A stretch of DNA of 64,000 nucleotides from Stegostoma tigrinum (Eukaryota): positions 6,738,178 to 6,802,177 of the forward strand of contig NC_081391.1 of the NCBI RefSeq assembly GCF_030684315.1, in the 5' to 3' direction. This document shows, in pieces, positions 14,101 through 46,100 of the stretch; positions within the stretch are counted from its first letter, which is position 1, and every line of letters starts with the position of its first letter. The position numbers and the translations under genes were made by a program. The notes beneath the pieces are model-generated. The model was not told the origin of the DNA, did not search any database, and saw nothing but the letters and a program-made list of their open reading frames with translations.

Positions 14101-15519
14101 TCCATGCAAGGCCCCTATCATAGGTATTCATTCCCTCCTTTCAGAGATTGCTTAAAAACCCACCTCTTCGAGCAAATGTTGGTTAATTTGTCTTTTATAT
14201 TGGTGTCAGGCTATGTTTGATATTACTTCTGTGAAGCACCTTGACACATACATAAGGGTTATGTAAATGCAGCTGGTGATTGTTGGCCTCACCTCTGCCA
14301 TGGGTGTGAAATTTCAGCATCTGTGGAAGCAGTGGGTTTGAATTTTTATTACTTCTGTGTGTTTTTCATTTGATCCAATATAACTCTATTTCTGTTGGAA
14401 GAATATAGTTTTTTTAATCCAGAAACTAGCTTGATTGAGGTTTCTGTAGAGACTCCTGAAATGCGTGCACATCCAGCTTCGGGCTGACAAAGAAAAATTA
14501 TTCTGATTTAAGAACCGCACCATAATTAGGTTTAAAATGAGCTCAAGCAAGTGTGATGCAGATTGTTCTATGAATATTGGATTGTTACCTTCCATTTAAT
14601 GATTGGGATCTCTTTGCCCCTTGCCCCAAGGTGGAGCACAGTGACTCATTTCTCCTGAATGTAGTTCATTGTTGCTCTTGGTTAAAGTGGCGTAACATAT
14701 GTGGAATAAAAATGGAAAATACTGGAAATTTTCAGCAAATCTGGTTTGTATCCCTGGAAAGTGAAACAGTGGCTATTTCAATCCCAATATGGAACAGTCC
14801 CTGAATGTATGTGAGCACATAGTGTAGTTAGTTTTGTGATTTTTTTTTCCAGTTGAAATCTCTAACTTGTTTTGAAGTGGAGCCATCTCTGTCCCCAGAG
14901 TTCAAATTTGAGTGTGTTTCACTGACAACAGCATGCATATATGTAGTCAAAGCAAGAAAATGACTTTAATGAAGCACAATGGGACATTTATGTATTCTCT
15001 AATGTACATATTATTTATATGTAATTACTTTGTATTTAATCTAAAGAAATGTTAAAGTGCTTCACAAAGCATTAAATAATGAACAGTCAGTTGGACAACG
15101 ATGACCAAAAGCTCAGCTAATGTGATGGGAGGGGTTTTGTTTGACAATGAAGTGATTTTGATGTTGCGATGGGGTTTCTAAGCTAAAGTTTCACTATTTG
15201 AAAAGTATTAAATCCTTTGGAACTGTTGTTTCCAGAGTTGCAATCTTAACACCTTGTAATAATTTGAAGAGTCATAGGCCATTTTGGAGGATGCTGTGCG
15301 CAAGTTTTTGGTTTTGAATCTATTGCCTGTCTGATTTCATGACATCTCATCATTGAAATTATGGACTTTCTGTACTGTTTCAAACTGCTGAAAATTAATT
15401 GCAGCTTATCCTTTGCTCTCCCTTTCAAGCATTTCTAGCAACTGGGATGTGTGTGATCTTTTTTTTTAAAGAAAATCTTTTTTCTCCCCTTTTTTTTTCA
15501 GGGTAATATTCGCGCCAAG

Positions 15520-15709
15520 GTGGATTTGCCAAATGAAGTTAGCCTTCCCCCTGCCGTCTCTGGGACTGGAGCAGATGGCAGTGGGGTTGGCGATGGTGAA
15601 GACGATGGTTCAGCTCCGAGTCCACAGAGTGAAGCGGTCACAAATGAATTGCAGGAGCTCACATTGCAGTCAAACAATGGCCTCTCTCCATTGAACAAAA
15701 GAAAAAATG
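15520..15709 (+). CDS. MRTFA: First coding exon of myocardin-related transcription factor A (MRTF-A/MKL1). Exon is 15502-15709; CDS probably starts at GTG 15520; ends in phase 1.
   Basis: Long polypyrimidine acceptor (tttctcccctttttttttcag, AG at 15500-15501) and donor AATG|GTGAGT after 15709. Translation VDLPNEVSLPPAVSGTGADGSGVGDGEDDGSAPSPQSEAVTNELQELTLQSNNGLSPLNKRKN resembles my recollection of the human MRTF-A N-terminus (..NEVRLPPSV..DGGGAGENDD..APSPQSEAVANELQELSLQ..LPPLSERKN|VLQL). The NEV.LPP segment favours MRTFA over MRTFB. Confidence 0.88.
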
Positions 15710-15987
15710 GTGAGTACCTGTGGACTGCATATAGTACAGTAGTGCCTTGCATATTGGCAGTTTGTGGTCTTGCCCTAATCTCGTGCGCATGTGAGATTTT
15801 GCCACTCAAAACTTTAATCTGGAGCTTGGTGAAAATAGGATCAAATACAGTTGCGATGTCTTGTGTGCTTTAATAGTTTGCCAATGTTTACGCAAAAACT
15901 ATTCTCTCTAGTACAATATCTATAGGAATCCTAGCATCAGAACTGTGATGCTTTAAGAGTTTGTACAACCTGCACAGCTAAAGGTCC

Positions 15988-16400
15988 AGTCTAGCTCAAT
16001 GGGTAGCATTCTTGCCCGTAAATCAAATAATCGTGGTACAAAGTACTACTGCAGATACTTAAAACTATCATGAAGGCTAACAACCCCAGGTCTTCTGCAT
16101 TGCTGGGTGCCGTCTTTTGGAGTAACTATTAAACCAGCCTGCTTTCTGCCCCTCCAAGTTGATTCCACAGCACCGTTCTGAAATGGAGAATGGAAACTCT
16201 TCTTGTAGTGTTGACCAGTAGTTCTCCCCAAACCAGTGTTGCTAGAACAGATGAGGTGATCATATTGCTTAATCATGGGAGCACGCTGTGCAGCAGCCAA
16301 CTTGTGCACTACATGCATTCCAAAAGTAACTACAGCCCATAAGCATTTCACAGGCCATGTAATATTCTGGGATGACCAGAAACAGTGAAAATACTATCTG
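15988..16400 (+). mobile_element. Deu-domain SINE (SacSINE1-like), degenerate
   Basis: agctcaatgggtagcattcttgcc tRNA A-box; gcattgctgggtgccgtctttt..ttaaacc Deu-like core. Confidence 0.6.
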
Positions 16401-17107
16401 AACACTTTATTTTCTTCCCATGATTTAATGGAGCTGGTGAGCAAAGCTGCCTTAATTAGTGATGTGAATGATTCCATAAATATGATAGAGTATGTTTGCT
16501 TGAGACTGGATATCGTGAGCTCTGGGAGTTGGCAGTGGCATGAGTGGTTGTGTTCTTTCTTTCTTTGTAACTCAGGGTGAGGTCAGTTTCAAACAAGCAT
16601 TTAAAAAAAGTTGCAAAATGTAACTGAAGTTAACATGCAGATTTGTTATTTTCCCTGTCATCTGTTTTCAATTTTCAGAAAATGTGAAAACTGTTTCTTG
16701 GAGATGTTGTACTTTGAATTGTTTATACAGTTTCTTAATCAAAGCTGTGCTTTGTATGTGAATCAGCAAACTACATCAGTTTAGATTTGTGGTTTTCATT
16801 GGAGGCATCTCAGTCAAATGATGCTAGATACATTTAAACAGGACAGGCAGCATCTTTGGAGAGAAAATTGGAGATTTTGTCAGAACTGATGGTAAGTGCA
16901 GATACCGAATTCAAAAACAAACTTGTTTTAAACTTTGATTAACAGCAACATCTGCACAACTTACCTAAAGTTCAAAGCCTCTTCAGGAAGTTGCACAGAT
17001 CTTAATGTTGGAATTTACTCAAAACATGGTGCAAGTTGCACTCAATGTAACAATAGTGATGTCTCAGTAATTGTATTTGAGTTCACAGTTGTGAGCAGCC
17101 TGAGGGT

Positions 17108-19085
17108 AAAGAATCATACAGAATGGAAACAGACTCTTCAGCCCAACATGACCCCAAACTAAACAAGTCCCACTTGCTTGTATTTGGCGCATATCCCTCC
17201 AAGTTTTTCCTATTCATGTACGTATCCAAACGTCTCTTAAATGTTGTAACTGTACCTGCATTTGCCGCCACTTCTGACACTTTATTTCAAATGACCCACT
17301 CTGGTTTTAAAAAGAAATTGCCCCTCATGTCCTTTTTACATGCTTCTCCTTTATGTTAAAAATACACGCCCCCTTGTTTTGAACTCCACCAGTCTAGGGA
17401 AAAGACTTGCTATTTACTTAGCTGTGCCTCTGATTTTACGAACCTCTAAGATCACCTGTTAACCTTTACACTCCAATGTAAAAAGTTCCAGTCTAAGCAT
17501 CTTTGTTGATAAGTCAAGCCTTCCATTCCCAGCAGCATCCTGGTAAATCTATTCTAAACCATCTCCATTTTAATATTATCCTTCCTACAGCAGGGTGACC
17601 ATAATTACATGCGGTACTCCAGAAGAGGCCTCACCGATATCCTGTACAAGCTCAAAATGACTCCACTCTGATACATAATGGTCTGAGCAATGCAGGCAAG
17701 CATGCTAACCACTGCCTTAACCACCCTGCCTACCTGTGATGCAAAGTTGAAAGGATTACATTCCTGAACCCCTAGGTGTCTCCATTTTTACAATGCTATC
17801 CAGGGTCCTGCCCTCATTCGTTTTTACCAAAATGCAATACCTGTCTTCTACTGTCAAGTCAATTTTGTATAGAATTGGAAAGCTCAACCTGAATCCCATA
17901 TAATCTAACTTTGCTAATTAGTCAACCACGTGGAACCTTGTCCAAGTCTTCACTGAAGTCCAAGTAAACAATGTCCACCGTACTGCCCTCAGTCCTTTTG
18001 GTTGCTTCCTCAAAAAACTCAATTAAGGTTGAGAGACACGATTTCCCTTGCACAAACCATGCTGACCATCCCTAATCAGAGCTTGCCTCTGCAAATGCAT
18101 GTAAATCCTATCTTTCAGAATTACCTCTGACAACTTACCCACTGCTGATATCAGGCTATAGTTCCCAAACTTCTCCTTCCAGCTTTTCTTAAATTCGGAC
18201 ACTGTCCAGTCCTCTGGCACCTCACCCATAGTTATAGATGATCTCAATACTTCTGCTAGGGGTCCCACAATTTCTTCCCAACTTCCCACAATGTCCTGGG
18301 TTTTGCTTGATCAGGTCCTGATGACATATCCACCTTTTATATTTTCTAAGACCTCCAGCATTTGCTGTTCTCTCTTGTGAACTGTTTTCCAAACATCAAT
18401 ATTTATATCCCTGTGTTCTCTAGCCTCCATTTCTGTCTCCCCGTTAAAAACTAATAGGAGAGATAATTAATGAATATCTCTTATATCCTGAGGTTCAACA
18501 CACAGATGACCTTGTCAATCTTTGAGGGGCTCCATTTTCTCTTTAATTGCTCTTTTGCTCGTAATGTACTTGTAGAATCTCTTTGGATTATCCTTGAAAT
18601 TATCTGTCAAGACAATCTCAGATCCCCTCTTGAAGAATGTCCTACATACTTGTTATACTCTTGAAGAGATTCATTTGATCCCAGTTGTCTGTCTATAATA
18701 TGATTCTTTCTTATTCTTGACTCAATATTTTTATTCATCCATTGTACCCTTATCTTATCAGCCTTACCTTTCACCCTAACAGGAACATAATGCCTCTGAA
18801 TTTTCCTCATCACAACTTTGAAAGCCTCCCTCTTGTCAATTGTCCCTTTCCCTGTGAACAGTCCATTCCAATCAACTTTTGATTGTTCTTGTCTTGTACC
18901 ATTAAAATTTGCCTTACTCCAGTTAAGAACATAACTTTCATGGAAGGCTTCTCCTTTTCCATGACTCACTTAAAACTAATAGAATTTTGATCAGCAGTCC
19001 TAAAGTGTTTGCCTGTTGACAGTTTAGTCACCTGTTCTGCCTTGAGACCAAGTTTTGGTTCTTCTCTGGTAGGTATATTTACATA
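17108..19085 (-). mobile_element. CR1 LINE fragment with internal deletions
   Basis: EVPEDW..KEKFGNYSLISAVGKL..LIRDGQHG and NWSKANFNG..VPVRVKG motifs; 3' UTR near 17110-17300. Confidence 0.9.
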
Positions 19086-20289
19086 TTGATAGCTTGCAAT
19101 CTTGTTTCATTTATCCTGAATTCAAATAGTCACCCTTTGAATTTTCTCATTGTTGGGTTTTAAGTGCATCCAGGTCACGTGTTGCCATGACAGTTCTGTT
19201 GTTCAGCATTCGTGAGTGGTTGCATTACAAGACACTTACTTTTCCCTGAAATGGCCTGACATCTCTTAGCCTTGTTGTTATGCCCTCTTAAATTGTCCCA
19301 AACGATCATAAATGTGAAAGTTTGGAAACTGTGTCCCCTGTTTTCTTTGGTCAGCTGTAGTGTGGCACTTCAAGTGCATAAGTGTTAACTAACTTTTGAC
19401 ATTCCAAGCACAAATAGTTCTCCTAAAGTGCGAAGCTTGTTCTTGTACTACCTTGTGCTACAGTAAATAATGTTCATGGGGAAATGGCAATAGAAAGTTG
19501 GCAATTCGCATTAATGAAACATGGGCTACAGCAGAACTATCTGCGTGCCAGACTTTGCAGGTGATGTTTTCTATCTTGAGTTATTCAGTGTCTCCTTCCC
19601 ATTAATTACTTGAATGTATAAGCCAAGAGAAACCCTACTGGTGATATTTTGGTCCAACATCTATAGTGAACAACTGACCTTAGTGCCAATTTGGGACACT
19701 CAGGCTGGTGACTAACACAAGTTTGCTCTTTACTTTTTAAAACAAAAACTTCCAGTCTTGAATACAAGTATGATTTTTGCAGATGTTGAGTGGATTTACA
19801 ATGGAACCAGTTTTGATAAGATTGTGTTGATACATATATGTCCATCTGAATGTCAATAACGTGTTAGCATCTACCTGGGAATGCAAATCCCAAAGTAAAG
19901 TGATTGCTTCCTCGTTGAATTTCGGGTAATTAGTCTGCAGTGTAGTCTGTATAGGGGATACTTGATAATATCCAGCATTGTCTGTGCATTGCCATATGTG
20001 TGTAAGGGGTTTTTACTGAAGCCCCAGTGGTGGAGTTTGGATGCACTGGGGCCTTGGCCAACCCTGAAGGAGAGAGTCTCACCATTTTGAGGAAATAAAC
20101 AGTACTTTAGAGAAGATAGTGATATTTTCTTTTGGTCTATGCTTGATGAAAAGGAATTTGGTGCAGCAATTCCTTTTTAAAAAAAGAAAGGCGGTGAAAG
20201 GATCTGGTAAATAATTCAGATCACCTACTGATGAGAATAATTGAGTGAACGGTGTGTAATGGGGAGCAATACTGGAGTTTTGTTTTAAG

Positions 20290-20720
20290 AGCCTGACTGG
20301 TATTGGCTATCCCTTGATTTGAGGATGACAGGGTTGTGACTGAACAGGCAAGTCCCTGAGTCCTCAGACCTTTGAGCACTTTGGGGAGGTGCTAGTGCAG
20401 GATTTGCTTCCTCCTCTTCCCCTTTCTGCACTCACTCTGCCTATTGTTGTTGAGATGTTGGGTTCAAAGAGTGAGGAAGCTCAACAGACAAGTTGCCATA
20501 CTGAATAATGGGTAATGAGATTCTCCCAATTATTAATGTAGTGTTGCTGCACTTCAGTGGTAGCTTCATTGTGTCTTTGAAGGCTTTTCTTCATTTTCCC
20601 TGGAACTCTGGCTATTGGAGAGTTGAGAAAACAGGTCCTTTCAGAAGAGTCTTTTTGGTCTTTGGGATATAGTGTTCAATCCATGATGACTGATTTTGTG
20701 TGAGTTTTGCCTGAGTACTC
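20290..20720 (-). mobile_element. Probable RTE-type LINE 3' fragment
   Basis: ccttgatttgaggatgac tail is similar to the reverse complement of ~34030-34050; degenerate C-terminal coding remnants. Confidence 0.4.
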
Positions 20721-21821
20721 GTGCTGACTTCTAGCTTGATTGTATGTGGAAGGGAAGATTGAAGGAGGGTGTGTCTCGCAAAATTAAGATTCTGGAAAAT
20801 AATTTGAGAATAGAAGTTAGTAAATCATTCCTTCACATTCTGTGAAGCAGAAGTTGGCGCGTTCCATGTATGTTATTAAAAGAAGTTAGCGAGAGGGTTA
20901 ATTTTGATTGCTGAAGAAAGTGATTGGCTGCACAGAGCAAAGTTCACTGGCATTGTAAAAGCTTTGTGTGTTCAAGGCTGTCCTCATTTGAGGTGGTGAG
21001 CTGTATCGAACAAGCAGGAGGAGAGGCCCATACCTGAAAGTGTCCCACCCCCACTGAACAGTCGTCACCAGTGATAACCTTTTCACACAACCTTCATTTG
21101 AGAGAGAAATCGCACAGGAGTGAGAATGTGGTGGTGAATAACTTTGACCACGAGCCACTTGAAGAAAACACCCTTGTTTGGAAATGGAAAATCTGCTGCT
21201 CATGATCCACTGTGTGCACAGAGCAGGTAAGGTAGAGCTCATGTCTGAGGCATCAGGGTGGTGTTCAGTTAAATGGCTGTCTCTCTGGGAGCAGCTTATT
21301 CCCAATAGAATGGTTTAACTCTGAATTGTTTTCCTAGTTGATGAAGAGAGCTTTTCAGCAGGAGCTATGGGGCCCCTGAGATGGTAGTGATGTGTTTTAA
21401 TTTTGTTTTGCAATACTGCTTGCATTGCCAATTTCTATATACTGAGTGCACATTCCATTACAGCTTCTGAGTGGTGGCATGTTTGAACAAAGAGTCTCAA
21501 CAGTTGTCTATGCTTCTTAAATCAAATAATGTACTGTGGGCTTTAACCTCCCAATTTGTCGTCATTCCCTTGCCTACTGAGGCCATGCACTGTTTCTGAG
21601 TTTGGGAGCTGTGCTGACAGAGACTTCTCCAGTCCCACAGCACAGGTGGCGATTGTTGGGTTGACTTCCTAATTTTACTCCATGATCTTGCTGTAGAGTG
21701 TTTGATGCCCCTTGCAGACCAGAGTCTTGGTGAGGCTGTGACAAATTATACACTGTCACAGCCAAGTTTCTGAGGCAGTGCTGCTTAAGGTTCTTGGGAA
21801 GATCTGTAGCTTGTGTTGTGG

Positions 21822-22095
21822 GTTAGGTTGTTGATTTGCTCACCAGGCTGGATGGTTATTGTTCAGATGTTTTGTCATCATGCGAGGTAACATCAGTGTG
21901 GCCTCTGATGTGGTGATGGCTTTCTACTCCACTTAGTATTTATACAATCTGGTCTGTTGAGGTGTTTTGTCATTTCTGTTTTTTTTTTGCAAGGGGTCTA
22001 ATTTTTGTGCCTGGGGTCTAATTCCACATGCCAATTGATTGCCTTATGGGTGGAGAACCAGGCTTCTAGGAATTGCTGTGCATGTCTATGGCTTG
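21822..22095 (-). mobile_element. Degenerate Penelope-like 3' fragment, family of 54219-55440
   Basis: QFLEAWFSTHKAINWHVELDP; terminus similar to the reverse complement of 55320-55440. Confidence 0.75.
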
Positions 22096-22405
22096 AGTGA
22101 GGAAGGTCAGTGTTACAGTTTGCTGGTTTGCAAATTGAAATGAAGGCAATCCTAGTGTGAGAGCCTCTTGCCAGTCGTTGTTTGACAAAGGCCAATTAAC
22201 TAAACGTTTACTTTTTGCCTAAAAAGTTTATCCATCCATCTTCCTGTCTCCTTTCAACTATGGCACATACATGGTAGGACAGAACCTCAGTCTGTGCCGT
22301 ATGTTTTCAAGTTTTAATAAACAATCTGAGCAAGAGGAATGAGTATTGCGAGCTTTGTCCCTAATTGACAACTGCACCTAGGATTTCTATTTGAGTTTCT
22401 ATACG

Positions 22406-22736
22406 GGAGGCGATGGCCTAATGGTATTATTGCTGGACTGTTAATCCAGAGACCTGGATAACATTCTAGGAACGTTGGTTCAAATCCCATCATGACAAAT
22501 GGTGGAATTTGAATTTAATAAAATATCTGGAATTAAGAATCGATTGTTGGGAAAAAACCCATCTGGTTCACTAATGCCCTTTAGGGGAGGAAACTGTCAT
22601 CCTCACCTGGTCTGGGCCAACGTGCGACTTCAGACCCACAGCAATGTGGTTGACTTTGAACTGCCCTCTCGGCCATAAGGAATGGGCAATAAATGCCAGT
22701 GACGTCCTCATCCAGTTAAAGAATAAAGAAAAAAAT
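22406..22736 (+). mobile_element. Near full-length tRNA-derived SINE with LINE-like tail
   Basis: A box ggcctaatggt, B box ggttcaaatccc, tail gggcaataaatgcc..aagaataaagaaaaaa resembling the end of the LINE at 48140-49160. Confidence 0.8.
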
Positions 22737-23914
22737 TCCACATTGTCTATTACGGTGGGAGAGGGAGGTTAATAACATTTTTAAGAGGCTAGGTTTTTAC
22801 CTAGGGCATAAAGTGAAGAATCATGCCATTTGGCCCAATTAGTCTCTGCTGCTATGTATATTCCAGTCAAGTTCCCTCCCTTTTTTTCTTGTTGGAAACA
22901 ATAAATGTAACCATTCATTTCTTTTTCTCTCAAATGATTATCCAGTTTCCCGTAAAAATTGGATTTACACAGTTGACTTCAGCCACTCCCTATGGTAGCA
23001 AGTTCCATTTTTACACCATACTGTGGATGAAGATGTCAACTTTGAATTCCCCATTGGACTCCAAACTGCATTCCAGCATTACTAAACCTAGCAGGAAGAT
23101 TATTGTCCTTGATGAGGTCTTTCTTGCAGAATTTTGATGCCAGTCTCGCATATCGCAAACAAAAGGAATTATATTACTTGTCAATATTAAGGTTAGAAGC
23201 ATTCAGTGGAAAGCATACAGTCCCTCTTTCTTTAGTTCTTTGACCAGATGGGAGTCTCTCTGCCAAAGTCAACATTTACTGCCCATCCCTAATTGCTGTT
23301 GAATTAAGTGTTGTGCTCAGCCATTTTGGAGGACTGTTCAGAGTGAATTGCATACATCTCTGGAGTCGGGTCAGTCTGACAGGGGAAGGGGTCCCTTCAC
23401 TAAAGTTTGGATTGATCTGAGGACCATAGTCGTTGAGACCAAAACGTTAAAAGATTTCAAGAAAAAAAATACATATAATTCTTGGGGCTAAAGGGGTGAA
23501 ATTGGGAACAAGGTACTGAGTAGGATGATCAGCTATGATTTTATTGAATGGGGGAGCGGGATTGATGAGCCGAATGGTATGCTTCTGCGGACACGAGATT
23601 TTGGGAAAACTGAACGTGTTGGCCATGAGAAATACTCTGTGCAAGTCTGAGATTGGGAATTCTGTAGCGAATTATTTCCCAGTTTCCCTGAAGTTTGTCA
23701 GTTTAGTAGCCTGGAATTGTGCAGCTGGACAGTGTTTGTGGCAAGTATGAAGTTTCCAATATTGTTTTGGGACTGTCTGTTTGAGGGATAAATGGAGGAA
23801 TGAAGGCGGACATGTGATCTGTTCTGAATTTTGCTGTGCAGCAGGTTTGGCCCCGCCATGCGGTGAGCTTGGAGGAACTGTCAGGTGTAACATTCTCGTA
23901 CACCTAACGCCCTT

Positions 23915-24760
23915 TTCCATCTAGCTGGTAGTGACCATGGATTCGGAGTGTGCTGTTGGAGTCGTAGTGAGTTTCTGCTGTGCATCTTCTAGTGGTGTAA
24001 AGCATTGCTACTGTGCACTAGTGAAGGGAATGTATAAGGTGATGGGGTGGGGTGTCAAATGAGCAGGCTGTGTTGTCTTGGATGGCATTGACCTTTGAGT
24101 ATTGTTGAAGCTGCACTCTTAGTTCAAACCTGCCTCCGAGCAACATGTGCTCGTTTCTGTTTGTGGCACTTCATTCAATTGTCAGTGAGCTCCTGTGCTG
24201 ATCTGATTCAATTTAAATTGAATCAGCCATTTTAATATGAGCTTTTGTATTTGATACATCCTTCCTCCTGCGATGGAACCAGAGCAGACAATCTGAGAAG
24301 GCTACTTTTAATATTTTTTGATCCAGTTTGTTCCACAGCCCTCATGTTTGTGCACCTGGTGAGGTGGAGTGGGACAGCTTGGAGTAACTTCTAATAGAAC
24401 TGCAGCTGGGCTTGGCCAAGGTGGCCATTAACAGACACTACTGTCACTGCTATGTTCACTAAAAGTGGGTCAGATCCAACCCTGCCACTTATCAGGTCGA
24501 AATTTGGTCATCAGAAAAGTGATTGTGCTGTCATTGATAGTGCTGTCAAGCTGCACTTAGGACTAACCTGCTTTCTGCTCCGTTTGGTTTTCACCACCAG
24601 GACTAGTCAGCTCCTCAGCTAATTTAAAGCCTTGAATCAAATATCCAGCAGAAACTGAACTCCGGATATTACCTAAGAGTGACCTGTTTTTGACACCAAG
24701 GCTGCTTTTGACCAAGTATGGTATCAGAGTCCTAGGAAAACTGGTGTCTGTCAGCCTGCT
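23915..24760. mobile_element. Degenerate CR1/L2-group LINE fragments (minus ~23915-24125, plus ~24440-24760)
   Basis: Similar to the 48140-49160 family; RT-like remnants (FGFH.., FDTKAAFDQVWY). Confidence 0.55.
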
Positions 24761-25649
24761 GCAGGCTTTCGGTGATCCCTGGGCACCCAGGAAGCCTGGA
24801 ATGAATCATCACCTTCCATCTGAATAGCTAAATTCCTTTTCCTTTGCATTTTTTAAAAAATTGCATATTTGCAGTACAATGTTCAGAGGGGGTAGTTGGT
24901 TCTACTTTGGATCCCACCAAAAGTTTGAAAATAGAGGTTCAAGTCCCATTTTTGATCAACACTTGACCTTAGTTTAACCTTATATGGGCACATTCTTGTT
25001 AATCTGACTTTTAGCAAAGTGCTGCAGCCCAGACATTTTACAAGCCTGACTAAGTCATTTCTGTGCAGACTGTTTTCCATTGCCTGTCGACTGCACTTTG
25101 TGCACCTACAACTTGTTTTCATAGTGATGCAGCTGGATGCTGTTTAGAGCCAGGAGGGCTGTGGCCAGGGAGGAGCACCGGTCAATTATTTGTGTAATCT
25201 CGGAAGATTTCTAAGAGTTTCTGCCATGCTTCACTCCAGACAGAGTTTTATAATTTAACTGTATAAGTAAGCAATTTGCTACATAGCTAACTTGCATAGC
25301 CAGTTTGAACAATTTTAATTAAGTTGTCATTGGTTATAAATGAGCTTTTAATACCTCATTCACCAAGATTGAGCTTTCAGCTAAATGTGTTGACCCATCC
25401 ATGGCTCATCAACTTGAGACCAAAAGTAATTGGTGATATTCCTGTTTCTTTGCTGTCCCTTTTAAAAGGATCAGTAAAATCAGATTGTGATAAGGTAACC
25501 TAAACTTGAGTACATTTAATATCATTGTAATTTCTTCAAAATGTCTAGCAACTAATGGACCATTCTTGATGGCAGATCCAAAATCGGTGTGGAACTCTAG
25601 GATTAAACCCTACTCTTTCACCCCCCAAAAAACTCCTCCTTTCCCTGAC

Positions 25650-26290
25650 TGCAGATCATTGTTTTCTCTCAAATCCTCTACCCTCATCTCCAACAAGTGT
25701 GAGGAACTCGCAATTCGTTCTCACTAAGATTAAGACCATCCAATCAGCTGCATCTGTCACCTACTAGAACAAATTTTGTTTAAAGCACTCTCCTGCCCTT
25801 GTCCTGAACTTTTATTGTTAACTCAGTTCTCCTTATGCCTTCTGAGCTCATTTTGATCATGAAACTCCAATCTTGCATCCTAGATCCTATTCTGCTGATC
25901 ACTCACTAGCCTCCTTCCTCGCTCCAGTGTTAGCTGACATTGTTGGCAGTTCTCTAAACAAATACTTCCTTACGTCTTTATTTTCAAATCCCTTTGTGGC
26001 CTGACTCACCCCACTCTCTAACCTTAATTCTCACAACCATCTGAGATCTCTGTGCATCTTGACCACTGCAGATTCCAATTGCAGGTGTCTTGGGCTTAGT
26101 TAAATCTCCAAGTTTTAAACTCCTCTGTCCCTCATCCTGTTTCCTGCTTTAAGACTTAGAGTTCCCTCTTTGTCTCAACTTTAGATAATCTACTGTCACA
26201 TTTTTCTTTATTATGCTCCTCTGAAAAGCCTTGGGCTAATTTATTGTGATAAAGGTGCTATTTGACTATATGTTATAGTGTTGCTACTGT
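25650..26290 (+). mobile_element. Degenerate L2-like LINE fragment
   Basis: SNKCEEL..KIKTIQSA-like remnant and tail ctgaaaagccttggg..taaaggtgctat. Confidence 0.5.
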
Positions 26291-27029
26291 TAAGATGGCA
26301 AACATGGCAGCAAAACTGTCAGGAAAATGCAACACTTGACCAATGAATGTGTTTTTTACTGATGTTACGTGAAGGATAAATGATGACCACTGCTTGTGGT
26401 TTGACTCCTCAGCCAGTGCATCTTGCAATCTGCTGTCTCAGTCAAATGCTGCCCCTTCTGTTCAATGTTTCATCCAAAAACAATACTTTCTCAGTATTAT
26501 TTTCTGCACTATTGCCCCCAGTTCTTTGACAGCTGTAAAAATGTCAATAACCATTTGAAAATTCAGCATTCACTTGCCCTTGCAGTTCATTCTATCCCCC
26601 TCAGTTGTGTCTCTCTTTTTGGTTGGGTTCCATTTCTGTTGGTTCCCCTCTATTGTTTTTGTGTGTATCTTGGGCACTCATAACACATTCTTGAGCGTGT
26701 CTTCCGTAGCTAGATTTTTTTCCCCCCGTAACAAGTTGCCAGCCCACCAACAGAGATGGTGGGTGTGGGTGAGGGGCAGTGGTCCATAGCAAACATTCCT
26801 GACTTGGGAGTCTCTCCTACTGGTGCTGCTTACCATACTGGGTCTGCTGGAGGGTTTTGCAGGATTATAATGAACCTGTTTTGCCATGGAACAGAGTTCA
26901 CAATGTGACCAGAGTCCTGGAATTGGTCTTGTACCTGAAACTTGTACCTCCTGAGGCAGCGATGCAAGTACTGGGCCGCAAGACTTCTTTCATTGCCTCT
27001 TGTTACAGCAAAGCATGTTCAAGGAGAGC

Positions 27030-27350
27030 ATCTGGGTGTTAGTGGTAAGGCCAGCACTTATTGCTCCTCCTTAATTGCTCACAAGTAATTGGGAATGAAC
27101 TGCTGTGGCAACTGAGCAACCTATGAGGCCATTTCCAAGAACAGTGAAGAGTTAACCACCTTCCCGAGACTTAAGCACGGCTGACAGATTTCCTTCTGTA
27201 AAGGATGTCAGTGACTCAAATGAGCTCTTAGAATAATCCTGTTATTACTTAGTCACTGTTACCGATGCTTACTCTTTATCCTAAGTTAATGTAATAATGT
27301 AGTGCTGAATTTTCCAGCTACTAGTCTAGTAAGATTAACAGTGCTACTGC
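27030..27350 (-). mobile_element. tRNA-SINE copy, degenerate (22406 family)
   Basis: ggccagcacttattgctcctccttaattg..cagatttccttctgtaaaggatgtcagtga. Confidence 0.55.
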
Positions 27351-28285
27351 TCTTAATAAAATCATTGTGGTTGAGGGGGACAAAAGTGTAATGGAGGCAC
27401 TTTGTACTAGTAGCATAACCTCAATATATACCGCATCTATTTCTGTGATGTCCTTGGTTCATGAAACCTGATTCACCTGTAGTATAAGGAATTTTTTTTC
27501 TACAGTAAATGTTAGTAAGGGATGTAGGTATAGTGGAAGGAAGGGGAGTTGAAGTAGAAGATTATCCATCGTCTGAGATGAGTAGTCGAATGGGTAGGGT
27601 GGTGCAGGTAGCCTAGAATGGCCAGTGTTCCTTCTCTCCCATTTCCTGTGTTCCTAAACTGAGAGCATTGGATGAGTGACACATTTGGCTATTTATTTAG
27701 GACTCTAGCCCATTGTTTTTAAGGGCACTCTGAGTTATACTGCTGATGTTGAATGTGGCCTGAGGTGATGTTTTTAACCTGTTTGTTAATCTGTTTGTCT
27801 GTAAACAATGTAATTCAAAAACATCAATGGTCAGTTTTCAAGGAAATATAGAATACATCCCGAGGAAGAAGTGAGTCATTTTTGATAGCAGTGTAGATCT
27901 GGATTTTGGTTTCTAAATGATCTGTCAGTGCTGGGAGACTTGGTGAATTGTTGCTTTTAAAGAATGGTATGGGTTGTTTCACTTGCAATGCTGACTGTGT
28001 TTGAAGTTGTGGATTGTCTTGGCTGCTGTGCTGGAAAATGTCTGTCTTCAAAATTTCAGTGTTCAGAGCACATTTGTTAGATGTGGCCTTACCTGAAGTC
28101 TGTGACGTGGGAACTCTTAAGATTTCTTCTATTTCAGCTTCGCAGTTAGAGCATCAGCCCACCAGCAAAAGGACTCGAGGAGCAGCTGAGTCATTCAGAT
28201 TATTAAAAAAAATTCTAGAAATAGTTTAGACAGCATCTGTGGATTAAGAAACAATGAATGTTTCATGTCAGTGACCTCATTGAAG

Positions 28286-28512
28286 TCCTGTGTTTGCGTG
28301 GGTTTCCTCCGGGTCCTCAGGTTTCCTCCCACAGTCCAAAGATGTGCAGGTTAGGGTGGATCGGCCATGCTAAATTGCCTGTCGTGTTCAGAGGTGTGTG
28401 GGTTATAGGGGGATGGGTCTGAGTGGGATGCTTCAAGGGGGCGGTGTGGACTTGTTGGGCCAAAGGGCTTGTTTCCACACTGGAGGGAATCTAATCTGAT
28501 CTAATCTAATCT
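28286..28512 (+). mobile_element. 5'-truncated HE1-like V-SINE with (TCTAA)n tail
   Basis: gcgtgggtttcctccgggtcctcaggtttcctcccacagtccaaagatgtgcaggttagg; aatctaatctgatctaatctaatc. Confidence 0.85.
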
Positions 28513-28738
28513 TTATCAGGACCATTAACTAAATCATAGATTGACATGGTGTTGAAAGAAGCTAATCAGCCCGTTTGTGTTTGCATTGATTCTCCAATGC
28601 ATTATGATCTTGTGCCATTTTCTAGCCTATCACCCCCGCCATACTCTTCTGCTTTATTTCTACTCAAATAATGATTCGATGCCCTCTTACATGCCGTAAT
28701 TGAACCAGCAACCTCCCCACGGCCAGATCCAAACCACC

Positions 28739-28954
28739 TGTAGTGATTATAATGAGATCAGCCAGGTGGACCTCGTAGAATGAGTTCCCGAATTGGAGCT
28801 GTTAATCTTGTTCCATCAAGGAGCCCTGGCTGACAGATATAAACAGGATTGTCAGGTTCTGTTCACTCTGAGGAAGCTGGATCACTGTCAAGGGCTCCCC
28901 ATATAAATGAAGGGTGACTTGGTGATGGTTTCCGGCCTCTCTGCGGTTATTTCA
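28739..28954 (+). mobile_element. Solo LTR (216 bp) nested in a minus-strand CR1 fragment (~28530-29380)
   Basis: TG...CA termini, TATAAA at ~28838, 5-bp TSD ccacc (28734-28738) / ccatc (28955-28959); CR1 sequence resumes on both sides. Confidence 0.7.
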
Positions 28955-29499
28955 CCATCCATTGTGAGAGAAGGGTTCTTCTCGCATCACAATTATGAAT
29001 CATTTAAATCTGTGCCCTCTGTTTTTTGTCCTTCTACAAGCAGGAACAGTTTCTCCCTATCTCCCCTGTATTGATCATTCAAGATTTCGAAAACTTATTA
29101 TCAGATCTCCTCTTTGTCACCTTCACTCAAAAGACAACAGCCCTAACCCCTCCAATCTGTCCTCATTACTGATGTTTCTCATCCCTGTATCCATTCTTGT
29201 TTGCCTCTCCTGTACTGTCTCAATATGTTCGCATCCTTCCTAAAGCTTGGTGCCCAGAACCTCACCCAATACCTCAGCTAAACTTTGAGTATCTTATATA
29301 AATTCAACGTACCCTCTTTGCTATTGTCTAGTACATCCTTTTTGATAAAGCTGAGGACACTGTATGCTTTCTTAACAATTTTGTCTCCATCTGACCTGCC
29401 ATTCTTACTGGTTTGTAGCATATTGACCCGTGTGTGTCTACTACTACTTCCTGTAGAATTGCACCTCTTATTTTATGTTGTCTACCCAGGTTCTTCTTA

Positions 29500-29665
29500 T
29501 GCGTGGACCTTCCATATATTAGACTTGATCTTTCTCTGCAACTGTAATGCCATATTCTGCATTCTGTTCTATTACCCTGATACACTTACGCAAGGTGTGA
29601 TTTGTCTGGAAAGCATGCTAATTAATAATTTCACTATCTTGATATGTCATGACAATAAATCAAAA
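29500..29665 (+). mobile_element. Probable Rex-Babar/L2-type LINE 3' UTR fragment
   Basis: tattctgcattctgtt...gatttgtctgga..catgacaataaatcaaa tail. Confidence 0.4.
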
Positions 29666-30439
29666 TGTATCACTTCACACTTCTATTGAATTTCATCCAA
29701 TGCCCATTTGCCCTCTTCAACTTCTGAACATCATCCTTTTTGATGGGTTCACTCATACTCCCATAGGTAGTAGCTTTGCGCCATTGGCTCATCAGCCCAA
29801 CGTGCACACGCAGTGTTTAAACTTGTGGCTCCTCTTCTATTAAGCAGGACTGCTGTTGCCAACTACTTGTCATTAGGGTAAAACGCGTTTCTCAGTGGTC
29901 TAAACACAGCTTGTCTTCCTGTTGGTGGTTGGCAAATTCTGCTTCGTAGCTGATGTTGAAGAAACAAAAGTGATGTTGAATGAATGCTTGGCCACCACAA
30001 ACCAGTTGTCCCTGCAATAATCTTCCTGACACCTGGGAAATACTTGTGTTATACTTTTGATGAACCATTATTAGCCTGAAATGCTGAAAGTTTCTCTCTC
30101 CACAGATGCTGCCTGACCTAATGAATATTTCGAACATTTGTTTGTTTTTAGTGCGGATTCTAGAAATCTGCGGTATCATTTTATGTCTGGTTAACACGGC
30201 ATGGTGGAAACTTGTACTTTCTAAAGCACTCTCTTCACTTATTGGCCTTTGTACTTAGCAAGATGTGTGGGCAACTGTACTTCAATATTGTACATTAGTT
30301 ACTAGTGATGATCCAGTCCGTGGTTAGGTATAGTGTGGATCTGCTTTGATGCTCTGTGTTTTTGAATAGGCCTTTCAGAAACATTGTGCTTCACTGTGAT
30401 ACAGTTTACCCTTACACATATTGGCAATGATGAAGGGAA

Positions 30440-30806
30440 ACTTTGATTTACATAAGTACCTTTCACAAAAACTCAAAAGGCCCTTGCAGCCCATTAAATG
30501 CTTTTCTTGAAGTGAACCAACAGTAAGCACCCACAAAGAAGCAAAGTGCAATGACCAGATTTAGCATGGTTTCTCATTGTTTATAGCGGGATAAATATTG
30601 GCTCCTGTTTGAAATGGTGCCATTGAGCAGACAGGTGGGCCTCTGTTTAATGTGTCAACTGAAAGAGGGAACATACAACAGTGCAGCACTTCATCAGAAC
30701 TACATTCATGTGTCAGCCTTAGTTTTTCTGCTTGAACCCAGGGATGGGACTTGAAGCTGTAAGTTTTGTGAATCAGGGGTGACTGTGCTACCCATTGAGC
30801 CACAAC
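30440..30806 (-). mobile_element. Deu-domain SINE (SacSINE1-like)
   Basis: gggataaatattggc..gtttaatgtgtcaactgaaaga..acagtgcagcact..gggacttgaa..gtgctacccattgagccac. Confidence 0.7.
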
Positions 30807-30923
30807 TGGTACTGTTCTGTGCTGGCTTTGACTGGTATATGGTCCAGGCCCTCCTGTCTGGGTGGGGAAGCCAACTGAATTTTGTTTTGTTCTTATTTCT
30901 TCCTTTTTGTGTTTCCCATTAAG

Positions 30924-31043
30924 AGCACTCGGCTCCACCTGGTGCTCCTGAGATGGGAAGCCAGGCGAGCGAGGTGCGGACTTCTCCACAACTTCGTCAA
31001 TGCCACTCTACCTTCAGTCAACAGGAGGAGCGCCTGCTAAAGG
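30924..31043 (+). CDS. Candidate 120-nt phase 1-1 alternative (cassette) exon of MRTFA
   Basis: ~40-nt polypyrimidine tract ending ...cccattaAG (30922-30923) and donor AAGG|GTGAGA. Open in frame with the upstream exon: (E)HSAPPGAPEMGSQASEVRTSPQLRQCHSTFSQQEERLLK. Richer in GC and CpG than its flanks. No homology confirmed. Confidence 0.5.
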
Positions 31044-31699
31044 GTGAGATGTATTCTGAGATATGTACCTCTTATCTGTGGGTATGTTTGTAAGGGACTG
31101 AGGGGGAATAGTGGTCCGGGGCAGATAGTAACTAAAGCCACTATGTGGCCAAACAAGATGCTGTGATCCCAGGCCACATGGAGACATTTCCTGAGAGAAA
31201 TGGTTTAGAATATTATTTTAATACAGAACAGTAAATTTGAGTATATTCTAGAGTCCTATTTATGTGATTATTTTCCTTAGCCATGTGACTTTGTTGATTT
31301 GACGTGCGTTCTAGCAATGGTCATGGTTCATATCTAATCTGTTCCTGCAGTCCTTCCTTTAACTTCCTTTTTCAATTTCGCACTGGTAATAACTTGGAAT
31401 CCCTCATTACTGATTAGCATTGGATCATTGGCTTCTGTGTTGGTAAATTATCCATGCTTTTATGTTTCCCCTCTGTTACCCTAAAAATTTTGGAAATGAT
31501 GAATTTTTTTAAGCAGTCAAAAATGGTGAATGCACCAGGTTACAATGGGGATTCTTTGTTAGCTGTTCAACATCAGTTTCTTTCTTTAAGGATTTCAGCC
31601 ATTCGATGGTGTACCAATCTACCATAGAAATGGTCTATGAGCTGCTGGTGAGCTATGGTTCGCATTGTTTTGGCTTTACACTAATTGTATTAGAAAAGA

Positions 31700-43114: not shown

Positions 43115-46100
43115 GTTTGGGATGGGCCTCAAATGCTATCCTTTGAAAGAAATAAATCACTTTTTTTTGTCTTTAACTTGGAGAAGCTTACTAAACTTAC
43201 TCAGTGGACATATTACAAAGTTGCCAATCAGAGGTTCTGTTCCCTCTAATTTTCCTGCTCTTGCATAGGTCTCCAAGGTCCGTGTGGCTGTGGCTTCCAG
43301 ACCAGAGGCCTGTACGTTCATAGGATCCTCTGAGCAGCTGCCGCACAGCTTAGAAGAAGTGTTGATCAAAAATATATGCATGGGGAGAAAAGAGATTTGC
43401 AATAATTCTTCATTTGTTTAAATGGAGTTTAAATTTTAATTTCATACCCAGTCCCTGTGACTGCACCAAGTACGCTGAGCACCATTCTCTAATAGTCTTG
43501 GTGGCCCCACAGCAGTCGTTTTCGTTCAGCAAGTTCCTCGTCACCATTGAATTTAATGGTGTGGCAGACATGTCAATTGAATGGATTTTCTGGCCCTTCG
43601 GGCGGTGTCCAGGTCATTGGCTGATTTTGCCCAGTTTTTAAAAATGTTTTTGGAGCTAGCATCAGGAAGAAGACTAGCATTTGCTTGCTGGTGCTCCTGT
43701 TAAACCTGGAAGATGCAGTGAGGACTTTGTTAATGGATTTTTCTCTACTATCCTTGTATGTTCCAGATGTACTGTTCAGGTCTCCCTGCAGTAATGAATA
43801 TGCAGATGACAGTTGCTCAGTGCAGTAGGACTTCTGACTTATGGTGGTCTTTGTTGTCAAACACACATTTCTTTGGTTTGTAGAACGCTGTACCGAAACA
43901 GCTGTTTGAATGTTCCCTGTCAGGTCTTAACTCTCAAATGGCCAACATTCAAGGTGCTCGCATGAGGAAAGGTCTTCAAAGATGTTCCGAAATTTCTGTT
44001 TGAGTACTACCAATGGTTCAATATGGTGACAATTTACCTGTCAAATTGTGTCCTGCTTAAATCACAAGGCCTTAATGTTGAGGCAACATGTGACTCTATG
44101 ACTGTGACAAAGGAAGCAAATCCTCCACCGTAGTTCCGTGCATATCTGGGCATATCCTGGCCTCCATGTCCAAAGATCAGCATATCAAGAACTAGGCAGA
44201 TTAATTACTGTTTTGTGTCAGGGCTCATGCACCCAGATTTCTCTCTTGCTAGTTCTTGTTATTGTCTGACTGTATTAGAGCAACTTGTCCGTCTCTAATT
44301 TTCATCCTTACCTGTGTAGAAACCTCCTTAGAATTGCTTTGACCTTCTCACAATGGCATACCTGAGATCAGGAGCTGGACTGGCATAAGATCACATTGTT
44401 CAGTGTGCCCTTCGACTAAATATATCATTCTGTTGTACAATGGTACTTACCTGTAGTGGAAGTGTGTTTGGACACCAGGTCAGGTTTGAGAAGCAGTGGA
44501 CATTCTCCTCGGATCTAAGGAAGCTACCGGGAGATCTGATGGAGATGTGCACGGTCATGTCAAGTTTTTTCTACCTAACCTAATTTTTCCATTAGCTGAA
44601 GGCACAAGGAGTGGAGTCACGTGGTTTGGTGTAGATAGCAACAGTTAAGTGTTCTTACTGCATAGCCATGTCAGCCATGATGTGCTAACTAATGGAGCAC
44701 TGCGTTTGGTTAAATTGAGGCATTTTCACAATGGCAATCTAAAAGTAGTGGATTGCTGAGGCTCTGATTATTTATAATATATGACTGACTTGGATGATGA
44801 AAATGAATGCATTATCGCCAGATTTGTGGATGATACAAACGGGTGAGAAGACAAGAAATAAGGATGGCACAGCCTGCTAGGGATATTGATAGACTATGTA
44901 ATGGGAGAAAAACTTGGCAGCTGGAGTATAATGTGTGAAAAATTGAAGCTCAAGTGTGAGTTTGCCTTTGATCAAATGAAATTTTTAAAGTTAAGAACCT
45001 ATTTTAGTGACTGGATTTAATCTCTTACCCAGGCATGGACTGTACCTCTCGCAGCAGTCTGACACTTTGCCGGGTGACAAGTTGCTTGCATGTACAAGTT
45101 ACAATGACAGCTTTCCAAGCCTGTTATTGATGCATGGATCCAACAGCTGTGATGTTAGTGAAAAAAATAAATTAAAGACTCTGACGGTTAGTGTGATATT
45201 AAAAACCTGAAAAAAAGTCTCGAGTCAACATGTGCTGGTTGGAGCCAAGAGGGCAGCTGTGTAAGTACTATTTTGGTTGCAATAAGTCACTTGTTGCCAT
45301 GTGTTGTCAGTCTTGTATGTGCAGACTATGGCAAATGTTACCCTCTGTCACATGTAGCTGCTTCAGAGTGCGATCACGGTATCAGTTGGAGAGCTTTTGG
45401 ATCTTGTTCTGGCTGCTGTATTATGAAGCAGAGGAAAGTCCTGATTAGATTCTTTTGAACTAAGCTAAGGGTGCAGGGCAATTGAGTCACGCAGGCTGAA
45501 TGTCAGAAGTTGGAAATGATAAGTATTCTGGTTGCACTGCTGTAGCTTGAGACTGCACACCGTTGATTGCCCCAAGAAAAGCTTTAAATGTACTTTCTTC
45601 AAAAGCAGTCTTCTACCATGCTGGATGAGACCAGGAAAATCAAGCCAGTCTTGTCCGAGATCCTGTCTGTCAACGGTCACGACACTTGGAAAGGACATTG
45701 CTGTGCTGACAGTACTCGTTACCGGGGGTTAAAAGAAGGTTAGCTTTCTCCTGCTTGTGGTCATTTTCACCGAAAGTAGACTGTTGCATATTGTTCACCT
45801 TCGCCTTCTGCATATCTGCCCAATCCTAGCAACTGTTGACAGACTTAAATGGCTTTCTGATGCAGAACCTAATATAAATCTACGTTCGGGCGAATGAATT
45901 TCTGGTAATTTACAAACAAGCAAACTCCTTGTGATTTGACTCGTTTGCACTCATTTGAATAAACTTTTGGATCTGGGAAAATTATGAAAAATTCAGACCT
46001 TCAAGAGTGCATCGTTGGGTTTACTAGTGACAGAATGAAAATTGCACATGCAAGTGTAAAGCATTGGGTATAGTTCAGGTGGGTGGGGTGGCGGATGGGT

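What the first reader, a model, noticed from the sequence alone, without database searches (positions are those of the whole stretch)
30924..31043. Candidate undescribed in-frame 40-aa cassette exon just before RPEL1, with its own AUG
Seen: strong pyrimidine tract, AG acceptor, G|GTGAGA donor, exactly 120 nt, phase 1-1 matching the upstream exon, no stop codon, CpG retained. It holds an in-frame ATG in good context (GagATGG, 30953). Inference: inclusion would separate the basic KRKN from VLQL, the region reported as an ERK docking site next to RPEL1 in mammalian MRTF-A, and put ERLLK before VLQL. It could also give an AUG start lacking the N-terminal export-signal region, so it may act as an isoform switch. 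The AAG acceptor is weaker than YAG.
Basis: partly seen in the sequence, partly recalled or inferred. Interest (0 to 1): 0.7.

Follow-up and report, generated by a model that had tools for sequence, protein, structure and literature searches.

The report
Shark-and-ray optional MRTF-A exon
This is a real, spliced 120-base exon of the actin-sensing gene regulator MRTF-A, kept across sharks and rays and already present in automatic database gene models, which likely weakens the protein's docking site for the ERK kinase, as a reported brain-specific exon does at the same spot in the mouse sister gene MRTF-B.

Summary
The exon is real. Its coordinates, splice sites, frame and AUG check out. Assembled contigs from related organisms join it to the upstream exon (2 of 4 runs) and to the RPEL1 exon (2 of 4 runs). 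It is not unannotated: a RefSeq predicted zebra-shark MRTF-A carries it letter for letter, and 17 of 18 shark and ray species seen have models with it. Four species have both inclusion and skipping models. None of 187 non-elasmobranch MRTF proteins has it. Its last 21 residues are identical between a carpet shark and a devil ray, and its Met is kept in all 17 species. Inclusion splits the RKN|VLQL ERK-docking motif, as the mouse MRTF-B SOLOIST exon is reported to do. Docking loss is inferred, not shown: one or two basic residues remain, and splitting a motif does not explain 21 conserved residues. Use of the AUG is unproven, and seven out-of-frame AUGs precede it. I saw no skipping junction in reads. 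Verdict: a new member of a known kind, of modest interest.

The parts
15502..15709 (+). MRTF-A exon encoding the NES1-like NELQELTLQ segment, the S33-like SP site and the KRKN half of the ERK-docking motif; candidate non-AUG start GTG at 15520 (A at -3, G at +4)
   Evidence: joined to the cassette in contigs X13 and X8; start codon inferred from the human GTG start in exon 3 (PMC8079280)
21184..21226 (+). coding part of a BSAC-like alternative first exon (ATG to phase-1 donor G|gtaagg); other sharks have models that splice it onto the cassette
   Evidence: P0220 joins it straight to RPEL1; P0236, P0230, P0221, P0238 and P0017 join it to the cassette
30873..30923 (+). AG-free zone, polypyrimidine tract and AAG acceptor of the cassette
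30924..31043 (+). the alternative exon, 120 nt, phase 1-1, 40 codons (38-41 in relatives)
30953..30955 (+). in-frame ATG, Met kept in 17 of 17 species with the exon; use as a start not shown
30983..31042 (+). conserved core (20 codons here, 21 elsewhere) that abuts RPEL1; predicted helix running into RPEL1
31044..31049 (+). donor GTGAGA; joins the RPEL1 exon at G000:C50:6803034, just past the window
45588..45738 (+). coding part of a second alternative exon (MLD...GLKE type, phase-1 donor); similar to the YHSL(R/K)E exon of birds, turtles and lizards, not to the cassette

Best explanation
This is a real, in-frame exon of shark and ray MRTF-A, likely optional, that is spliced in between the export-signal exon and the RPEL1 exon, swapping the residues in front of RPEL1 and so likely weakening ERK docking. 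Shown: both junctions in relatives' contigs; conservation across sharks and rays; basic residues in the nine positions before the first RPEL1 leucine fall from 3 to 1 (2 in this species), and net charge falls from +3 to -1 (0 here). Taken from automatic database models: skipping, and use behind a BSAC-like first exon. Inferred from mouse data: weaker ERK docking, less phosphorylation of the S98-equivalent site (PLKSP, present) and so less ERK-driven release from G-actin, leaving the included form under actin control alone. Inferred from conservation and a weak model: the 21-residue core extends the first RPEL1 helix and has a contact of its own. Speculative: its AUG starts a three-RPEL protein without NES1.
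For:: X13 record 9 and X8 record 24 carry 15500-15708 directly next to 30923-31043, each with 3 gap letters (frame kept); in X1 and X14 the letters before the RPEL1 exon are the cassette's 3' end; 17 of 18 species have models with the exon, 6 behind the NES1 exon, 7 behind another first exon, and 4 also have skip models; core 21/21 identical Hemiscyllium vs Mobula (whole protein 820/1105; 19% of 21-residue windows are fully identical), and indels are whole codons only. DNA differences in X13 are 5/121 in the exon, 14/209 in the upstream exon and 28/207 in an intron piece. PMC4963197: the D-box overlaps RPEL1; BSAC lacks it and shows no S98 phosphorylation. PMC8593110: SOLOIST's 21-residue insert disrupts RKNVLQL in MRTF-B; the RPEL1 peptide of PDB 2v51 has 5 residues before the aligned stretch, the positions the exon replaces.
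Against: A loose D-motif pattern (basic, 2-6 residues, L-x-L) still matches the inclusion form through the R of EERLL, and through K here, so docking may persist. Splitting a motif needs no particular sequence, so it does not explain the 21 conserved residues. This species has the most changed core among the sharks seen (R to Q, one R lost, Q to K). No skipping junction was seen in any run laid. No laid run was from the window's own organism, and the runs were picked because they hold the exon. Heptranchias has no model with it among 7 proteins. The structure model is single-sequence with mean pLDDT 40, and it fuses the whole RPEL1 motif into one helix.
Confidence: 0.55

Rival explanations
1. 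The main job is a gain. The conserved 21-residue helix adds a binding surface (actin, importin, CRM1 or another partner) to RPEL1, and any ERK effect is secondary.
For: The core is as conserved as the NES1 segment and contiguous with RPEL1. Predicted helix 12-48 has pLDDT about 67-80. Inclusion creates an L-xx-V-xx-L-x-L export-signal-like pattern that is absent in the skip form.
Against: The same pattern also arises with the BSAC and MLDK-type exons. The isolated RPEL domain and two predicted N-terminal elements did not score as export signals in mouse (PMC4963197). No known domain or homologue was found for the core.
Confidence: 0.25
2. The main job is to supply an AUG. With the exon, the first in-frame AUG moves in front of RPEL1, so the AUG-started product has three RPEL motifs and no NES1, instead of the two-RPEL 'met' product.
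For: Met is kept in 17 of 17 species while flanking residues vary (5/9 before it and 6/10 from it, shark vs ray). 13 of 18 species have models that start there. The upstream exon has no in-frame AUG, and a further upstream exon has an in-frame stop in this species.
Against: Automatic models tend to take the first in-frame AUG (my knowledge of such pipelines), so those starts are not evidence of initiation. Seven out-of-frame AUGs precede it, and the last (15707) opens a 39-codon frame that overlaps it. In rays the codon before the Met is Gln, which puts a C at -3 (inferred from the protein).
Confidence: 0.12
3. The exon is close to constitutive in elasmobranchs, and the skip models reflect minor transcripts.
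For: Long contigs in X13 (1499 nt) and X14 (7025 nt) run through with the exon included. No skip junction was seen.
Against: Skip models exist in two carpet sharks, the white shark and a devil ray. An X4 contig starts exactly at the RPEL1 acceptor, a hint of more than one upstream partner. The runs were selected for holding the exon, and contigs drop minor forms.
Confidence: 0.07
4. A chance pseudo-exon or annotation artefact.
For: The AAG acceptor is not the optimal YAG.
Against: Both junctions are in contigs from four organism labels, and the protein is conserved across sharks and rays.
Confidence: 0.01

Closest known systems
SOLOIST / MRTFB isoform 4 (mouse; Ishibashi et al. 2020, known here only through the review PMC8593110)
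   Same: An in-frame exon inserted just before RPEL1, in an isoform that keeps the upstream exon, splitting RKNVLQL.
   Different: It is in the paralogue MRTF-B, 21 residues long and neuron-enriched. The shark exon is in MRTF-A, has 38-41 residues and an internal Met, and its tissue is unknown. Homology could not be tested because the SOLOIST sequence was not seen; no similar exon was found in the readable part of this genome's MRTF-B intron.
BSAC / MKL1_S (hMRTFA-TV5) alternative first exon of mammalian MRTF-A
   Same: Replaces the residues before RPEL1, removes the basic half of the docking motif, and gives a three-RPEL protein with an AUG start.
   Different: BSAC is a first exon that also removes NES1. 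The cassette can keep NES1 and can follow a BSAC-like exon. Sharks have a separate BSAC-like exon (21184-21226). There is no profile similarity.
MLDK...YHSL(R/K)E alternative exon in predicted MRTF-A isoforms of birds, turtles, lizards, teleosts, coelacanth and mammals
   Same: Same intron, phase 1, internal Met; in turtle models it is also spliced between RKN and RPEL1 (6 proteins).
   Different: The shark counterpart is a different exon at 45588-45738 (hhalign probability 78, E 1.7e-5 against sauropsids). The cassette scores no better than shuffles against it (34 of 200 shuffles as high).
RefSeq predicted isoforms of elasmobranch MRTF-A (e.g. XP_048377083.1, XP_060705644.1, XP_041034062.1, XP_062918793.1)
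   Same: The very same exon.
   Different: These are automatic models with no functional description that I found.

Membership tests
MRTF-A (MKL1) gene | three RPEL motifs, then basic/Q-rich region, SAP domain and coiled coil | tested here: met
   RPEL1-3 and the downstream motifs lie on C50 in order
MRTF-A (MKL1) gene | A rather than B paralogue | tested here: met
   RPEL1 reads REELASQ, as in MRTF-A structures; the B-type copy (REQLVDQ) is on C27; records are named MRTF-A or MRTF-A-like. No tree was built.
cassette exon | spliced at both ends in transcripts | tested here: met
   (relatives' contigs; RNA status is the tool's guess, but the contigs lack the introns)
cassette exon | skipped in some transcripts | tested here: inconclusive
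   skip models in 4 of 18 species; no skip junction in the runs laid; the 3 models of the species matching the window include no skip form
cassette exon | frame-preserving and conserved | tested here: met
SOLOIST-type ERK-docking-disrupting insert | inserted between RKN and VLQL | tested here: met
SOLOIST-type ERK-docking-disrupting insert | loss of ERK docking and of S98-site phosphorylation | not testable with these tools
   sequence only: basic residues fall from 3 to 1-2, and a loose pattern still matches
SOLOIST-type ERK-docking-disrupting insert | neuron-enriched inclusion | not testable with these tools
   the runs carry no tissue record
SOLOIST-type ERK-docking-disrupting insert | sequence homology to the 21-residue MRTF-B exon | tested here: inconclusive
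   paper not held; no similar exon in this genome's MRTF-B intron, about 15 of 90 kb unreadable
neural microexon (3-27 nt, SRRM4-regulated) | length 3-27 nt | tested here: not met
   120 nt; definition from the abstracts listed
BSAC-type alternative first exon | first exon without an upstream acceptor in use | tested here: not met
   the acceptor is used; a separate BSAC-like exon exists

The most novel reading that the evidence does not exclude
Sharks and rays independently evolved, in MRTF-A, the same ERK-uncoupling splice switch that mammals have in MRTF-B. Their version also adds a 21-residue helix kept almost unchanged since the shark-ray split, a binding element of unknown partner on RPEL1, plus an AUG that yields a three-RPEL protein without NES1. 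The RKN|VLQL junction would then be a repeatedly used evolutionary hinge between actin-only and actin-plus-ERK control of SRF.
Probability: 0.3. Interest if true: 0.5.

Novelty: new member of a known kind. Interest (0 to 1): 0.3.

Why it matters
MRTF-A integrates actin and ERK signals, and the biological context for isoforms with and without the docking site was left open in PMC4963197. A third, apparently separate exon at the same junction suggests that tuning this motif by splicing is under recurrent selection. It also offers a natural variant that keeps NES1 but changes the docking site in MRTF-A itself, which BSAC does not. The impact is limited: the exon is lineage-restricted, already in automatic annotation, and its principle is published for MRTF-B.

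Tried and rejected
1. Tandem duplication from the MLDK-type exon. A gap-free resemblance of the last 15 residues to the bird exon suggested it, but hhalign gave score 8.0 with 34 of 200 column shuffles as high, and 93 of 200 against sauropsids only. Rejected. 2. Homology to BSAC-like exons: none. 3. A paralogous exon in this genome: none by tblastn or in the MRTF-B intron (about 15 of 90 kb unreadable). Five 63-nt open phase-1 segments there could not be assessed. 4. Repeat origin: single DNA match in the genome, but that search skips common words. 5. Homologues outside elasmobranchs: HMM best score 4 bits on N-termini of 180 proteins. phmmer of the 40-residue peptide against 1.84 billion representatives gave 0 hits, which is uninformative because it missed the known shark proteins too. 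The ESM Atlas gave only RPEL clusters below 0.9. No protein named as chimaera, lamprey, gar or MRTF-B was among the hits, so absence there is untested. 6. No listed run is on record as RNA. Contig depths were not used to estimate inclusion. 7. Splicing-factor motif scan within 300 nt: no RBFOX or QKI site, nothing decisive. 8. No complex prediction was run: ERK with a docking peptide and RPEL with actin are textbook pairs, and one job cannot compare two isoforms. 9. The SOLOIST paper was not held.

Full report
Observation. Bases 30924-31043 are 120 nt, flanked by a pyrimidine tract with AAG acceptor and a G|GTGAGA donor, and open in phase 1-1 with an ATG at 30953. The upstream exon 15502-15709 ends in AAT G| and encodes NELQELTLQ...KRKN. 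The RPEL1 exon is not in the window. It lies at G000:C50:6803034-6803099, 857 nt past the end, and begins TA CTG CAG. RPEL2, RPEL3, the basic and Q-rich region, SAP and the coiled coil follow. The MRTF-B copy is on C27, so this gene is MRTF-A. The exon is single-copy by DNA and protein search of the genome.

Splicing evidence. A run search listed 22 runs. The 18 guessed to be RNA come from five other organism labels and hold 0.20-0.44 of the words; the four full holders are of unknown kind. I laid four runs on 15300-31500. In X13 (record 9) and X8 (record 24), one contig carries 15500-15708 directly adjacent to 30923-31043, read from the record coordinates in table 8 (the displayed part of the joints table did not list it). 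Each has 3 gap letters, so the frame is kept. X1 has a contig lying exactly on 30923-31043 with one difference. X4's piece on the exon was not among the rows shown. I then laid four runs on the RPEL1 exon. In X1 and X14 the letters before it are the cassette's 3' end. X4's contig starts exactly at the acceptor, and X8's starts inside the exon. No skipping junction was seen in either call. None of these runs is from the window's organism, and all were chosen for holding the exon.

Already annotated. The peptide hits RefSeq predicted MRTF-A isoforms. XP_048377083.1, named Stegostoma tigrinum, carries the window's exon letter for letter between KRKN and VLQL. Among 72 proteins from 18 elasmobranch species (cluster look-ups; tally), 17 species have the exon. 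Six have it behind the NES1 exon, 7 behind another first exon (mostly BSAC-like), and 13 have a model starting at its Met. Four species (Hemiscyllium, Chiloscyllium plagiosum, Carcharodon, Mobula hypostoma) also have the skip form. Heptranchias (7 proteins) has none with the exon. Of 187 non-elasmobranch proteins retrieved (180 with RPEL1; mostly mammals, birds and reptiles, some teleosts, coelacanth, lungfish), none has it, and an HMM of the exon scores at most 4 bits on their N-termini. No chimaera protein was retrieved, so the exon can be dated only to before the shark-ray split. These are automatic models, so they support the isoforms but do not prove them.

Conservation. The part before the Met is 5/9 identical and the ten residues from the Met are 6/10 identical between Hemiscyllium and Mobula. 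The last 21 residues are 21/21 identical and continuous with RPEL1; the whole protein is 820/1105 identical, and 19% of 21-residue windows are fully identical. The Met is in all 17 species. Length changes are whole codons. This species is the outlier among sharks: R to Q, one R lost, and a final K for Q. At DNA level the exon differs less than the upstream coding exon (X13: 5/121 against 14/209, with an intron piece at 28/207; X8: 4/121 against 19/209).

Mechanism. In mouse MRTF-A a D-box ERK-binding motif overlaps RPEL1. Mutating it, or using BSAC which lacks it, impairs S98 phosphorylation, which otherwise weakens actin binding and favours import; NES1 is residues 41-49 (PMC4963197; passages and one results section read). 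The shark skip form has KRKNVLQL, and the PLKSP site is present. Inclusion lowers basic residues in the nine positions before the first RPEL1 leucine from 3 to 1 (2 here) and net charge from +3 to -1 (0 here). I therefore infer weaker docking. Against this, a loose D-motif pattern (recalled consensus) still matches, and mere disruption does not account for 21 conserved residues. A single-sequence AlphaFold model of the Hemiscyllium AUG-start isoform makes the core one helix with RPEL1 (residues 12-48, local pLDDT about 67-80, mean 40), which is weak support for a structural extension. Inclusion also creates an export-signal-like pattern, but so do the BSAC and MLDK-type exons, and the mouse RPEL region did not score as an export signal.

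The AUG. The upstream exon has no in-frame AUG but has a GTG in strong context at 15520. An exon further upstream has an in-frame stop in this species, in line with the human non-AUG start in exon 3 and untranslated exons 1-2 (PMC8079280, passages). With the cassette, the first in-frame AUG would precede RPEL1 rather than lie at its end as in the 'met' isoform (PMC3821035, parts 1-2 of 4 read). However, seven out-of-frame AUGs come first and the last overlaps it. Database starts at this Met may only reflect a first-AUG rule. Unproven.

Comparison with what is known. A review (PMC8593110, passages) reports that SOLOIST/MRTFB i4 differs from isoform 3 by a 21-residue exon ahead of RPEL1 that disrupts RKNVLQL, is neuron-enriched and lowers dendritic complexity. 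The primary paper was not held, so I saw neither its sequence nor its supplements, and homology is untested. No similar exon was found in this genome's MRTF-B intron, of which about 15 of 90 kb was unreadable. The same MRTF-A intron holds two more alternative exons here: a BSAC-like one (21184-21226) and an MLDK-type one (45588-45738). The latter is similar to an exon that turtle models also splice between RKN and RPEL1. The cassette is not detectably related to either. Eight literature searches showed no paper on this shark exon; I saw listings only for most hits, and the library lacks most subscription journals. PMC13605766 (passages) added nothing.

Verdict. The exon is real (about 0.97) and alternative (about 0.85). 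Weakened ERK docking is about 0.55 and use of the AUG about 0.4. It works like SOLOIST, but membership by descent is not shown. New member of a known kind, already in automatic annotation; interest 0.3.

Noticed in passing
window 21165-21226: BSAC-like first exon. Other sharks read ...LFGTENPLLMIH..., but here the upstream LFG codons are out of frame with ENLLLMIH and a new in-frame ATG (21184) precedes it. This looks like a one-base insertion rescued by a new start.
   Followed up: partly
window 45588-45738: MLDK-type alternative exon; its counterparts end in YHSL(R/K)E in birds, turtles, lizards, teleosts and many mammals, so a widespread MRTF-A N-terminus exists that the reviews I read do not list among the named isoforms.
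   Followed up: partly
window 15520 and 15533-15709: GTG in strong context as candidate start; seven out-of-frame AUGs all in one frame, six ending 47 nt before the cassette AUG and the seventh overlapping it.
   Followed up: partly
RPEL1 acceptor (L014:855-857), Narcine models P0018 and P0058: Narcine models differ by one Ala at the cassette-RPEL1 junction, suggesting a tandem acceptor there.
   Followed up: no
about 18.5 kb upstream of the window start (L047): An exon translated as coding in bamboo-shark models has an in-frame stop in this genome, so those annotated N-terminal extensions are probably 5' UTR.
   Followed up: partly
about 36-43 kb upstream of the window start: Large CpG island (GC up to 0.79), the likely main promoter.
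   Followed up: no
window 31270-31476: An intronic piece 230 nt downstream of the exon is matched by an X13 contig at about 86% identity; not examined for a regulatory role.
   Followed up: no
window about 17000-19000, 22400-22700, 28300-28900: Highly repeated elements drawing thousands of contigs in all four runs; not classified.
   Followed up: no
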